A stretch of DNA of 64,000 bases from Eledone cirrhosa (GCA_964016885.1 OZ024742.1:249674001-249738000), one strand, 5' to 3'; counted from the first letter of the stretch, positions 21,741 to 63,200 are shown. Program-made: numbers and translations. The notes: generated by a model not told the origin, from the letters alone.

Positions 21741-21937
21741 AACGAAGGAAATGTGGTAAGGAACCAGGTGGACCATAACGCACCAAAGTACTCAATACAT
21801 AGGGTAGTAGAGTAGGTAATAGGAACGAGTGGGACCCCGACGGCTGAGCTCAAGCCGTTTCGACGGCTAAAGTTTTTAGTCCAGAATTAGCCGTCGAAAC
21901 GGCTTGAGCTCAGCCGTCGGGGTCCCACTCGTTCCTA
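21741..21937. mobile_element. Fold-back mini-element, family C copy 1
   Basis: Long arm on the minus strand and short arm on the plus strand. Each has GAAA-CGGC..GCCG-TC-GGGG (3' half of an HHR). Set in (TA)n, with TATACATTATAT on both flanks. Confidence 0.85.
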
Positions 21938-22399
21938 TATACATTATATATATATATATATATATATATATATATATATATATATATATATATATATATA
22001 AAGTAATTCCGTTGGAAAGGTCCAGGAAAAATGAGTTCTCTATGTAGGTTACAGAGTTTATTTATGTAATAAACAACATAAGATGATTATTTCATTTACC
22101 AGTGGTTTCTTGAAAGCAAATAATTCAATAAAAACACCAGGAACTTTTCATTCTGACGACTGAAAGCAGATTTATTTGCTTTCAAGAAACCACTGGTAAA
22201 TGAAATAATCATCTTATGTTGTTTATTATATATATATATATATATATATATATATATATATATATATATATATATATATATATATATATATATATATATA
22301 TAAGCATACATATTTATACATACATATATAATATATTTCATTTTTTAAGACTTTTAAAATCTTGGCCCGAATTTCATCTATCCACCTCCAACAACAACA

Positions 22400-22570
22400 G
22401 CAACAACAATACCGTGTTTCTGACATCATTTGCAAGCGTCATCTTGGCTGGTTGGGACATGTGACAAGACTCCTAAGTAAGAAACATGCTAATCAGGTCC
22501 TGTATTGCTACCCCTATGGAAAGACGTCAAGAGGACCTTCCAACTTAAAGCGGTGGCAGACAATCGACTG
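22400..22570 (+). mobile_element. RTE-like LINE 3' fragment
   Basis: RHLGWLGHVTRL...QVLY...RGPSNLKRW. Confidence 0.6.
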
Positions 22571-23069
22571 AGAGCTGAAACCCGTCAACAAAAGTTAGAC
22601 GGATATAATTGTAAAAATATACCAATTCTTCGACGCATCATCTTGCTAACAATATCATTTTAGTAACTGTAAGAAAATGAAAATATATATGTAATTCAAA
22701 CGCAGATGAATATAGCGAAAAATCTACTAGCGAATATAAATAAGGGTAGCTTCTAGTAAGGGGCATAGTGAAGGTTTTTTCATCCTCGCCATATCTTTTC
22801 AACATTGTATTGCATAACCGCACTTAATATATCCCCCAGTTCAAATCTTACTCAGGACTCCCTATCATCCTTCCACGCTTGACAAAATAAACTGCCAGTT
22901 AAATATTGCATCCATTTATTCAGCTTCCAATGGCGTTGAAGGTATTTTTCGGCATGATTGTGGTGGTGGTGGTAGTGGTGTGGTTAGTACTGGTTTTATT
23001 TGTGGTGGCAGCTGTGTGATGGTGGTGATAATGGCGTTGAAGTAGATGGTACGACGTACAACGCCATAA

Positions 23070-59628: not shown

Positions 59629-59849
59629 ATTATTTCTTCTTCTTCTTCTTCTTCTTCTTCTTCTTCTTCTTCTTCTTCTTCTTCTTCTTCTTCTTCTTCT
59701 TCTTCTTCTTCTTCTTCTTCTCATTAGTATTATTATTAAGGGTAGTGTATTGGTAGTATCGGCGGAACGTCAAAGTACACGCTTTTCAGCATAGAGTTAC
59801 GGCCCTTTTCGTTGAGTTCACGTAAAGGTGAGAGCCAGTGAATCAGACT

Positions 59850-60330
59850 GACCTGGAAGATAATTCGCAAAATACATCATCGCGTGGGCCAGACAGTTTG
59901 CGCGTATTTCAGTGGTATCCAGAATGAAGCTCTGGCCGTCAAATCGTAATTATGTTCTCCACCCATCATATTTCGGGAGCTGGACGTTTGGTGTCAACAT
60001 TTTGGAAAACCCCACCAGATGTGAATATCTAGTCGATGTTGCCCTGCATCGTACTCCGATGTCAAAATTGCCCAGGGATAACTGTGGAGGTGTTGCTCAA
60101 CATCAAACCAGATAGTTAGCACAAGATCCCAGACCTCATACGCTTTCTGGAAGGACTGGAGCTGCATGTATGGTTGAGAGCAGAAAGCAGCGCTGCCATC
60201 TGTGTGGGAAGACTGTCCACTTAAGAGCTGTCTGTCCTCAACAAAAGACAGTGAACTACAGGTCCACCTTGTTTCTAACAACAGGACCCAAAATTTGACA
60301 GCTACAAGAACAACATAAACAGAAAACAAC
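59850..60330 (+). pseudogene. LINE ORF1-like remnant with CCHC zinc knuckle
   Basis: Hand translation gives MVESRKQR-CHLCGKTVHLRAVC-P, with CX2CX4HX4C at 60194-60235. Confidence 0.6.
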
Positions 60331-63021
60331 AATAGTGGCGAAACCAACCCCGGTAGTAGCAACAACATCAACAACAGTGACAGCAGAACAAAACAACTGC
60401 AGCAACAGTCCCAACACCAGCAACACCGCCAACAGCAGCAGCCGAAACACCACCACTAGCATCAACAGCAGAAAAAAAATACAGATATCGCGGAAAAATC
60501 CCAGGCGCCTCCTCTCACTCTCTCCCACTCTCTCTCTCACTCTCTCTCTTCGCTCTCTCTCTCGCTCCCCCCTCTCTCTCTCTCTCTCTCTCTCTCTCTT
60601 CGTCTCCTCTAAACACAAACACACGCATGCACACTCACACAAACACAAACACCGTCCCATTTATATCCGAGACATAAACCGCAGACGCCAATACATCCAC
60701 ATCTTTGTGAGATGAAGAGGAGCCTCCAAAACCATACAAACAAAAAAAAAAAAAAATAAAGAACATCTTGCCTGCACATCATCATGCACGAGAGAATCTA
60801 CAGATAACACACACCCAGCAATTACAGACACACCTACAATAACACCAAAACCACCACCACCACGGCCACCAAAATAACAACTGCTAACATCACCAGCCCC
60901 ACCAAAACTACAACAACCATATCTACCCACAAAAAGAAAACAAACAAAACAACAACCAACCACACAAACACTAGTAGCTCAAACTTGCACGCCAGCACTA
61001 GTGAGGAGTGAGAATTTATTCTAGTACCATTCCTTGGCTAGTAGCTTCTGTCCTCAAGGACGTGAAAGATAAACTGACTATGCTGGAGGTGTTTAGAATA
61101 ACAAGAGAAAACCGATCTGGCATGGTAATGAATCAACTCCTACAAAGGGACCAAGAGACCAGCTCGGATATAATAGACCTCTCCAGTGGCACCCACCTCC
61201 CCGGGATGCAGAAATTCAAATGTCATATTGTTTGCGGTAACCCTAAGTAAAGGCTATCTGTTCATAATAGATCACAAATGAGGGAAGGCCCCCCCCCTCT
61301 CCTACCATGCCAATTCCCCTGCAGCAAAGACAACGGTAACTGCGCCAATATCAGCAGCATCAGCAGCAACATGACCTACAACTGCAGTTCAAGCAGTGCC
61401 AAAGACTACAGATCCAGTTAAGTAATGAAATAGTGATTGAGAAAACTAGTCTTAAAGAAAGCTCTGCACTTTCCCTCTTTGTAGGGGATACCTGCTAATA
61501 GTTAGACAGTCAGTTTGTTATCAAACTCCACTGAGTGGAGAACTGGGTAAGACGTGGCTAATGATGTACAGACAGGTGTTAAGACTACGACATCTTTATT
61601 TTTCCATTTACGACGAATAGGTTTCATTGTCTTTTGATAGACGCATTTTCACATGTTTCTTTAACAGAGCAACAAAGCTAGGGCAAACGAAGTCCGATAC
61701 GGAGCTCTTTGCCAGAGATTCTTTTAGAGTTCGCAGCCTTCTACCAGTCGGGCAGTACGGTTGGTGGAAATTCGATCTTTGCGTTCCATAGAGGGCTAGG
61801 AGCAGGTTAAAGAGACGATGTTGTTGGGGTGTTTGTCATCTTACTCCTCTTTCTCACACCTCCTTTTCATCTTTCCTTCCTTCTCTTCTTCAAATCCTAT
61901 TGAAACACTTTATATTGATAGACACAACAGTATCAAGAAGATGCGCCGTGTTATGCTCTGAAATACATGTGTCACAGATTAAGCACATACGTTGAAGCGG
62001 AAGAGGTATAAAAGTCTATGCTGCCTACATAGCAGAACAACGACTGATGCAGCTTCAGAGAAAACTAAGGTGCGAAAAATTGAAAATTTTAACAAAAGAC
62101 AGATGAAGAGAGAAATAGACATACATACATACTATATATATATATATATATATATATGTGTGTGTGTGTGTGTGTGTGTGTGTATATATATATATATATA
62201 TATATATATATACATACATATATTCATGCAAACGTACACACATACATACATAAAGGCATACATACATATAGGCATACATACATATGATTATAAATATAAA
62301 TATATACATGTGAATATACATATATATATACATATAAATATACATATGAATATACATATAAATATATACATATGTACATTTAAACTGGCACTGAGTCGCT
62401 TACGATGACGAGAATTCCAGTTGGTACGATCAACGAAAATGACTACTCGTCAAAGTATCTTGCAATGCTGAACATTTTACAGCCACGTGTATTTTTGACA
62501 TAGTTCTCAGGGAGATTCAGCATGACACTTCTGGCCCTTCGAATTAGAGCAAAGATATTTTTTGGCAATTGATTGAACTGGTGCAAAGTGTAGTAATGTT
62601 TCAGACACAACTCGCCGCCCAGAATCGAACTCACGATTTTACGATGGTGAGTTGAATACCCTACCCACTAAGCCACGCGTCTTGGCTACACATACATACA
62701 AAACACACCTACTCATATGACACAGGAATACGTACATACATACATATATATATATATATATATATATATATATATATATATATATATATATATATATATA
62801 TATATATATATATGCATATGTATATATGCACATATATATATGCATATATATATATGCATATATATATATATATATATATATATATATATATATATATATA
62901 TATATATATTTATATATATATATATATATATATATATATATATATATATGTATATATATATATATATATGCATATATATATATGCATATATATATATATA
63001 TATATATATATATATATATAT

Positions 63022-63200
63022 AACGAAGGAAATGTGGTAAGGAACCAGGTGGACCATAACGCACCAAAGTACTCAATACTTAGGGTAGTAGAGTGGGTAA
63101 TAGGAACCAGTAAGACACCGACGGCTGAGCTCAAGCCGTTTCGACGGCTAATTCTGGACTCAATACTTGAGCTCAGCCGTCGGGGTCTTACTGGTTCCTA
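63022..63200. mobile_element. Family C copy 5
   Basis: Same arms with an asymmetric, deleted centre, in (TA)n. Confidence 0.85.

What the first reader, a model, noticed from the sequence alone, without database searches (positions are those of the whole stretch)
21741..63200. Family C folds back inside the putative ribozyme stem II, and the inversion looks re-made at each insertion
Seen: five copies (21741, 34278, 42190, 45270, 63022) keep only the 3' half of an HHR (GAAA-CGGC..GCCG-TC-GGGG) and no CUGANGA, because the mirror axis sits just upstream, where stem II would be. The bases after CGGGG differ between copies (TCCCACTCG, TCCTACTCG, TTAAATATT, TCATACTTT, TCTTACTGG) but match between the two arms of each copy. 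The central junction differs in every copy. The short arm always stops at ...TTCC, mostly TTCCTA, running into (TA)n. Inference: cDNA snap-back or a template switch at the stem II hairpin, or two RT priming events using TA microhomology, creates the palindrome and deletes the catalytic core.
Basis: partly seen in the sequence, partly recalled or inferred. Interest (0 to 1): 0.8.

Follow-up and report, generated by a model that had tools for sequence, protein, structure and literature searches.

The report
Fold-back stubs record jumping-gene RNA ends
The five hairpin-shaped repeats are stubs of a Penelope-like jumping gene, rebuilt at each insertion, and their centres pile up at two sharp spots that likely mark the RNA's capped start and its ribozyme cut, which would show how these elements copy themselves.

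Summary
The five copies are real and belong to a family of over 20,000 insertions. They are not MITEs. They are the end module (pLTR plus 80-nt tail) of a 3,543-bp autonomous Hydra-clade Penelope-like element found elsewhere in this genome. The parent has a complete type I hammerhead with the variant core UUGANAA (U3-A8), which is why no CUGANGA was seen. The inversion is re-made at each insertion: the two arms of a locus share a subfamily, and junctions do not follow subfamilies. The axis is not at the stem II hairpin, and snap-back fits poorly. Arms stop at a fixed base (+1) in loop II, often with an extra G on both arms, as expected from copying a cap. A smaller class stops exactly at the ribozyme cut site and lacks that G (one-base spacers: C/G in 23 of 25 versus 0 of 10). 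Best model: both target strands prime reverse transcription at the two internal 'tail' sites of a sense RNA, and the two cDNA ends are joined. The architecture is published. I found no paper with these junction signatures, which bear on open questions about template strand and in vivo ribozyme cleavage. No RNA data were available.

The parts
21742..21870 (-). copy 1, tailed arm (+138 back to +10; +1 = A of AGTCCAG in loop II)
21871..21877 (.). copy 1, junction spacer (A-run on the cDNA of the short arm)
21878..21935 (+). copy 1, tail-less arm (+1 to +58), then (TA)n
34280..34337 (-). copy 2, tail-less arm (+58 to +1)
34344..34480 (+). copy 2, tailed arm from +1; 6-nt spacer at 34338-34343
42191..42321 (-). 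copy 3, tailed arm (to +8)
42322..42380 (+). copy 3, extra G at -1 (42322), then tail-less arm +1 to +58
   Evidence: parents have T or C at -1
45270..45326 (-). copy 4, tail-less arm (to +2)
45329..45454 (+). copy 4, tailed arm from +13; 2-nt spacer at 45327-45328
63023..63161 (-). copy 5, tailed arm to +1 plus extra G at -1 (63161)
63166..63198 (+). copy 5, tail-less arm from +26; 4-nt spacer at 63162-63165, which with its flanks repeats 10 nt of the tail
34359..34389 (+). hammerhead 3' half (GAAA, stem III, GUC cut triplet, stem I strand), shown in copy 2; predicted cut between +41 and +42
   Evidence: pairing with the 5' half in 98 parent arms

Best explanation
Family C copies are insertion stubs of an autonomous Hydra-clade Penelope-like retroelement, and each is likely made by two cDNAs that are primed from the two cut strands of a (TA)n target and joined at their 3' ends. 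Shown: the parent is a 3,543-bp unit with RT, CxCx5C linker, GIY-YIG nuclease, a ~1.2-kb 3' UTR and a U3-A8 hammerhead. The tail runs straight on into the ORF, so both element ends (TTCC|TA at +58 and CGT|TA at +138) are internal to the RNA. Inferred: the enzyme nicks both strands of (TA)n. One end primes at +58 and the other at +138, mostly on the same sense RNA. Each cDNA runs until the RNA ends or the enzyme falls off, and the ends are joined by a template jump or end-joining with microhomology or added bases. The commonest RNA end is inferred to be a capped transcription start in loop II (+1). It yields the 190-bp stubs without the catalytic core, and the cap is copied as an extra G. A rarer end is inferred to be the ribozyme cut (+42), which yields ~115-bp stubs without that G. 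Long copies and tandem arrays come from RNA that continues upstream of +1 (read-through or circular).
For: Parent: 2,721 exact arms with the hammerhead 5' half. ORF directly upstream. Intact unit in a tandem array, with the tail running into the ORF. Re-made per insertion: same spacer subfamily in both arms in 41 of 42 pairs (26% by chance), site +35 concordant in 104 of 104, 91 junction strings in 104, and recurrent junctions cross subfamilies. The arms are sister tips in all 15 long insertions where both arms cover the aligned stretch, 16 of 22 overall. Two cDNAs: one tail in 100 of 103. Arm reaching further at the centre: tailed 44, tail-less 32, tie 28 of 104 stubs; 12 versus 9 of 21 resolved long pairs. 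Fixed end at +1: modal end on both arms; 878 loci with both arms ending at +1 with 1-4 bases between. In the first 50 of these (counted by eye), one-base spacers are C/G in 23 of 25. In the 25 longer spacers, the -1 base of the 50 arms is G 27, T 21, A 2, C 0, and both arms have G in 12. Parents have G at -1 in 0 of 77. A-runs on both cDNA ends. Cut site: 500 very short fold-backs in two subfamilies; in the first 40, 12 stop at +42 on both arms with a spacer and 4 are blunt. One-base spacers are A/T in 10 of 10 among the first 98 loci (by eye); Fisher p = 4e-7 against the +1 site. In vitro precedent: two internal RT start sites bound the tail, and both strands are cut and extended (PMC11167929).
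Against: No RNA data: no RNA holder was listed, so the start site, cap and cleavage are inferred from DNA. The extra G could reflect a terminal-transferase preference instead of a cap, though its absence at +42 argues against a general preference. 21 of 50 arms have T at -1, so the start may be spread over -3 to +1, or these are added A's. How one RNA is copied twice is not shown. A few loci have arms of different subfamilies (1 of 42; L113, L114, L174 by eye). Asymmetry of long arms could also come from later deletions across palindrome centres. Full-length copies do not start at +1 (0 of 15 insertions), so the capped RNA is not their template. In the Anolis element uncut RNA was the main substrate, and no reads ended at the cut site.
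Confidence: 0.78

Rival explanations
1. Snap-back or self-priming: one cDNA folds on itself, at stem II or at the RNA end, and is copied to make the second arm. This includes the published idea of self-priming on an antisense template.
For: It would explain at once the arm concordance, the single tail, and the pairing of long with long and short with short arms. Proposed for rotifer PLEs from palindromic junctions (PMC3846280, passages).
Against: A copy cannot reach further than its template, yet the tail-less arm is longer at the centre in 32 of 104 stubs and 9 of 21 long pairs. Both arms end in G with 0-2 bases between them in 12 of 50 loci, leaving no room for a hairpin loop. Folding at stem II would keep the whole 37-39-nt loop on one side; I saw no such junction among the 100 rows listed. 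Some loci have arms of two subfamilies.
Confidence: 0.1
2. The stubs are a self-propagating non-autonomous family: each stub is transcribed from +1 into (TA)n and mobilised in trans, rather than being a by-product of the autonomous element's mRNA. The two-cDNA mechanism would be the same.
For: Stubs outnumber long arms: 12 of 89 sampled tailed arms reach the core. Every stub reaching +1 keeps the presumed start site.
Against: The main stub subfamilies have matching long parents. Five insertions start near +1, run through the tail into the ORF (+232 to +959) and then restart at +1, so at least some RNAs with this start include ORF sequence. Rare variants are seldom shared by both arms of a stub (5 shared versus 100 in one arm), which points to few source loci.
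Confidence: 0.2
3. The pile-ups at +1 and +42 are RT stall or joining hot spots set by RNA structure or microhomology, not RNA ends.
For: Microhomology does shape junctions: secondary peaks at +4 and +7, and about 30% of the very short class collapse through the near-palindromic stem III. The blunt CCCC|GGGG string can also arise from a CG microhomology.
Against: Ends followed by non-element bases fall exactly at +1 and exactly at +42 on both arms. A stall at the base of stem III should stop at +40 or +41. The added base differs between the two sites. +1 lies in loop II, about 10 nt from the helix.
Confidence: 0.1
4. An inherited palindrome (MITE or other DNA transposon) whose arms are homogenised by gene conversion.
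For: Some junction strings recur; for example, many of the top 30 hits share one.
Against: Recurrent junctions cross subfamilies. Arm lengths form a continuum from 0.02 to 3.4 kb into an RT-encoding parent. The termini are asymmetric. Rare variants are mostly in one arm, so conversion is not pervasive.
Confidence: 0.02

Closest known systems
Hydra clade of C-terminal EN+ Penelope-like elements (Craig et al. 2021, PMC8557442; section 11 and passages read)
   Same: C-terminal GIY-YIG, DKT, RWK-like motif (RWR), CxCx5C linker, CxxC and CxH near the C-terminus, hammerhead in the pLTR, (TA)n target, inverted 5'-truncated copy with a tail at one end.
   Different: Unit 3.5 kb rather than under 3 kb. 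Tail 80 nt rather than 30-40. Hammerhead with U3-A8 core, a 37-39-nt loop II and a stable stem III. Over 20,000 copies, most of them pLTR-only stubs. No tree with reference Hydra proteins was built.
Poseidon element of Anolis in vitro (Frangieh et al. 2024, PMC11167929; parts 1-2 of 4 read)
   Same: Two internal RT start sites bounding the tail, tail overlapping the ORF start, both strands cut and extended, AT-rich target.
   Different: There, priming needs no homology; here both starts abut TA. There, no reads ended at the ribozyme cut; here a class of insertions ends exactly at it. That paper does not explain the inverted arm.
Inverted pLTRs and self-priming model in rotifer Penelopes (Arkhipova et al. 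2013, PMC3846280; passages read)
   Same: Head-to-head inverted pLTR, optional tail, palindromic junctions, Inr-like motif in the pLTR.
   Different: That paper infers self-priming on an antisense template. The junctions here point to two cDNAs on a sense template that is likely capped.
PLE hammerheads and the circular-RNA proposal (Cervera and de la Pena 2014, PMC4209133; parts 1-2 of 4 read)
   Same: U3-A8 core variant (Schistosoma Cercyon), opposite-strand hammerhead pairs 100-700 bp apart, tandem arrays compatible with circular templates.
   Different: They state that in vivo evidence of cleavage is lacking. The +42 class would be indirect evidence of it.
L1 twin priming (described in PMC11702581; passages read)
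   Same: Both target ends prime on one RNA; the inner junction shows microhomology or added bases; an extra G from the cap is noted.
   Different: L1 arms cover adjacent, non-overlapping parts of the RNA. Here both arms cover the same part, from two fixed start sites.

Membership tests
EN+ Penelope-like element | single ORF with RT and C-terminal GIY-YIG nuclease | tested here: met
   786-codon open frame in L333; 48% and 39% identity to the window PLE protein, which has a weak Pfam GIY-YIG hit below cut-off (E = 0.0027); no Pfam hit for the parent itself; motifs read by eye
EN+ Penelope-like element | pLTR with partial or full tandems, inverted 5'-truncated copy, tail at one end | tested here: met
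EN+ Penelope-like element | hammerhead motif in the pLTR | tested here: met
   98 parent arms: all three stems pair, U3-A8 in 79, N7 free. The arms were selected by a pattern on the 5' half; no compensatory pair changes; the predicted minimum-energy fold often differs
Hydra clade | DKT and RWK motifs, CxCx5C linker, CxxC and CxH flanking conserved E and N | tested here: met
   DKT, RWR (one conservative change), CNCPDRSIC, CNLC and CKH read against the definition
Hydra clade | insertion into (TA)n | tested here: met
   263 of 264 tail ends are followed by TA-type sequence under a loose pattern that also passes the tail-to-ORF junction
Hydra clade | phylogenetic placement of the RT with Hydra references | not tested
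   no reference proteins in hand; supplement of PMC8557442 not read
active hammerhead ribozyme | self-cleavage after GUC | not testable with these tools
   indirect only: arms ending at +42
MITE | fixed inherited internal structure and symmetric terminal inverted repeats | tested here: not met
non-LTR retrozyme | head-to-tail non-coding repeats each with a whole type I hammerhead | tested here: not met
   stubs are head-to-head and lack the core; definition from bioRxiv 10.64898/2026.07.22.740005 part 1

The most novel reading that the evidence does not exclude
Tens of thousands of stubs form a fossil 5'-end map of a Penelope-like RNA. A capped start placed inside the hammerhead's loop II disarms the first ribozyme copy. 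A U3-A8 hammerhead does cut in the germline, and its product is reverse transcribed. The inverted repeats typical of the whole class arise because one sense RNA is copied twice from two internal sites, and the second cDNA jumps onto the end of the first.
Probability: 0.55. Interest if true: 0.78.

Novelty: new variant of a known kind. Interest (0 to 1): 0.62.

Why it matters
How Penelope-like elements make their inverted and tandem repeats, which RNA strand they copy, and whether their hammerheads cut in vivo are open questions (stated as open in PMC8557442, PMC3846280 and PMC4209133). These junctions give countable, base-exact predictions: a cap at +1, a 5'-OH end at +42, and RT starts at +58 and +138, with an apparently intact 3.5-kb parent to test them on. 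In practice, such stubs resemble MITEs or miRNA hairpins (the Rfam scan gave only sub-threshold hits among the 150 rows shown, nearly all miRNA) and could be misannotated.

Tried and rejected
A search for CUGANGA upstream gave 43 hits; none of the 30 fetched was the parent. They were chance junctions or chimeras with other PLE families; the true core is a variant. Rfam showed no hammerhead among the 150 of 292 rows listed. Retrovirus-like strong-stop and jump as the route to full-length copies was rejected in its simple form: 0 of 15 ORF-spanning insertions start at +1 and 14 start upstream of -40 (positions printed there are one too high), and there is no scar at -1 in 77 long arms. A splice acceptor at AG|TCC as the cause of the +1 end was rejected, because no constant upstream exon sequence is seen. 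No RNA holder was listed. Contigs of four runs of unknown kind were laid: depth in X1 falls from 3.8 million to 0.24 million across +1, but contig depth is not copy number and X1 may be the assembly's own sample, so I do not count it. A second family (38126) has 101 fold-backs with varied junctions and no obvious fixed end. The survey of other window families was too coarse to test fixed ends. Six of 22 long loci did not resolve in the tree because one arm was shorter than the aligned stretch. In one search, 41 of 62 loci gave no resolvable pair, and 23 of the 62 had been picked because both arms were long. No paper describing cap-G or cut-site junctions in PLEs came up; subscription papers and supplements were not seen.

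Full report
Observation. The five copies are as described, with small corrections given under the observation check. The window is G000:C3:249674001-249738000 of a 3.0-Gb genome. Its repeat landscape looks octopus-like to me; this is a recalled impression and was not tested. Exact patterns find 15,251 fold-backs, 21,017 tailed arms and 24,658 tail-less arms, with no hits for the reversed controls. I number the sense strand from the A of AGTCCAG (+1). The tail-less arm ends at +58 and the tailed arm at +138, each just before a TA in the element's own sequence.

Parent. A search for CUGANGA failed, but sampled loci held arms that continue upstream. They complete a type I hammerhead: stem I ACCCC/GGGGU, core UUGANAA, G10.1-C11.1, a 6-bp stem II with a 37-39-nt loop, GAAA, a 5-bp stem III, and GUC. 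In 98 such arms position 3-8 is U-A in 79, C-A in 16 and U-G in 3, and N7 varies freely. These arms were selected on the 5' half, so this conservation is partly built in. The U3-A8 variant is published for Schistosoma PLEs (PMC4209133). 2,721 arms match the 5' half exactly. Upstream lie a ~1.2-kb UTR and an ORF with RT and GIY-YIG. A tandem array holds a 3,543-bp unit with a 786-codon open frame. Its motifs match the Hydra clade definition. In tandems the tail runs directly into the ORF, so both element ends are internal to the RNA, as are the two RT start sites found in vitro for Poseidon (PMC11167929). Long insertions have the same head-to-head plan, with arms from tens of bases to 3.4 kb.

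Is the inversion re-made? Yes. In 104 stub pairs the arms of one locus differ at 2.6 sites against 6.3 across loci (permutation p = 1e-4). The spacer subfamily agrees in 41 of 42 pairs where both arms fall in a common class (26% by chance), and site +35 agrees in 104 of 104. There are 91 junction strings, and recurrent ones cross subfamilies. Part of this sample was chosen by a pattern that needs both arms to reach +11. In a tree of 22 long insertions the arms are sister tips in 16, including all 15 where both arms cover the stretch. Rare variants are mostly in one arm (100 versus 5), so gene conversion is not the main cause.

Snap-back or two cDNAs? One tail is present in 100 of 103 pairs. 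At the centre the tailed arm reaches further in 44, the tail-less arm in 32, and 28 tie. In resolved long pairs the figures are 12 and 9 of 21, with 1-8 nt microhomology in 12 of 21 junctions. A copied arm cannot carry sequence that its template lacks, and each arm often carries sequence the other lacks. Later deletions could blur this, so the junction bases matter more. 878 loci have both arms ending at +1 with 1-4 bases between them. In the first 50, counted by eye, one-base spacers are C/G in 23 of 25. In the 25 longer spacers the -1 base is G 27, T 21, A 2, C 0, and G on both arms in 12. A script on 20 of these loci gave G on both arms in 6 and on one arm in 10, including subfamilies whose parent has T there. 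Parents have G at -1 in 0 of 77. Longer junctions often show A-runs on both cDNA ends. An extra G at a 5' junction is the known mark of a copied cap (noted for L1 in PMC11702581). The context TTAGT/TCAGT resembles an initiator (consensus recalled), and an internal pLTR promoter is known for Drosophila Penelope (PMC2377424, passages). Window copies 3 and 5 carry this G.

A second end. A search for very short fold-backs in two subfamilies found 500. In the first 40, 12 have both arms ending at +42, the base after GUC, with a non-element spacer; 4 are blunt, 12 collapse through stem III or are longer, and 12 are other. One-base spacers are A or T in 10 of 10 among the first 98 loci (by eye; 6 of 6 by script), against C/G in 23 of 25 at +1 (p = 4e-7). 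This is an internal control for the cap reading, and indirect evidence that the ribozyme cuts in the germline. It differs from the Anolis result.

Templates. Long arms pair with long arms: none of 21 resolved partners ends within 12 nt of +1 (13 of the 21 were picked as long-long), although only 12 of 89 sampled tailed arms reach the core. With the tree, this points to one RNA copied twice, with occasional two-RNA chimeras. Five insertions start near +1, run into the ORF and restart at +1, which shows template jumping and shows that +1 RNAs can be the element's mRNA. Full-length copies do not start at +1 (0 of 15), and 3- to 4-unit arrays with a period of about 3,540 bp exist. So long copies use RNA without that end: read-through or circular, the latter as proposed in PMC4209133. 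I could not separate these.

Verdict. This is a known class and a known architecture, seen by earlier agents in other genomes (not used as evidence). What I did not find in the searched literature are the two base-exact ends with different added bases. Shown: parent, subfamily concordance, end positions and added bases. Inferred: cap, start site, cleavage, double copying and the joining step. Supplements of PMC8557442 and PMC11167929 were not read and may list this family or similar junctions. PMC13282606 (part 1 of 3) gave nothing on it.

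Noticed in passing
window 26765-31740: A second, near-complete Hydra-type PLE (ORF 27639-29873, hammerhead near 31652-31695 with canonical CUGAUGA) with the same head-to-head plan, the tail on the inverted arm, and an asparagine-rich insert between RT and nuclease like those described in rotifer Penelopes.
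   Followed up: partly
window 5235, 22001, 26049, 34654, 38126, 39572, 44797, 47031, 53738: About nine other (TA)n-flanked fold-backs. In several the axis lies at other places relative to a hammerhead-like motif (before stem I at 38126, near the core at 34654 and 47031), so the axis is not tied to stem II.
   Followed up: partly
L032, L039, L040, L047, L049, L056: Chimeric insertions in which a family C arm is joined to an arm of a different hammerhead-bearing family, sometimes by microhomology.
   Followed up: partly
G000:C2:356030079-356031006; L305/L306: Short tandem arrays (299-bp and 257-bp period) of the leader plus ORF start; retrozyme-like in layout.
   Followed up: no
G000:C2:40830062, C2:42128150, C1:424501320: Arms that start at or next to the cut site and also run from the tail into the ORF (places shared): candidate copies of the cleaved monomer RNA.
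   Followed up: no
L137, L084 and others: 16 of 98 parent arms have C3 with A8, a mismatched core predicted to be inactive; one-base reversion between U3-A8 and C3-G8 seems to be in play across subfamilies.
   Followed up: no
window 9518-12650, 15340-18783, 55835-59376: Fragments of non-LTR retrotransposon ORFs with RT (clade not tested); 56097-58104 has 392-nt inverted arms.
   Followed up: no
window 48292-52317: About 4 kb of (AAC/AAT)-type triplet repeat with strong AT skew.
   Followed up: no
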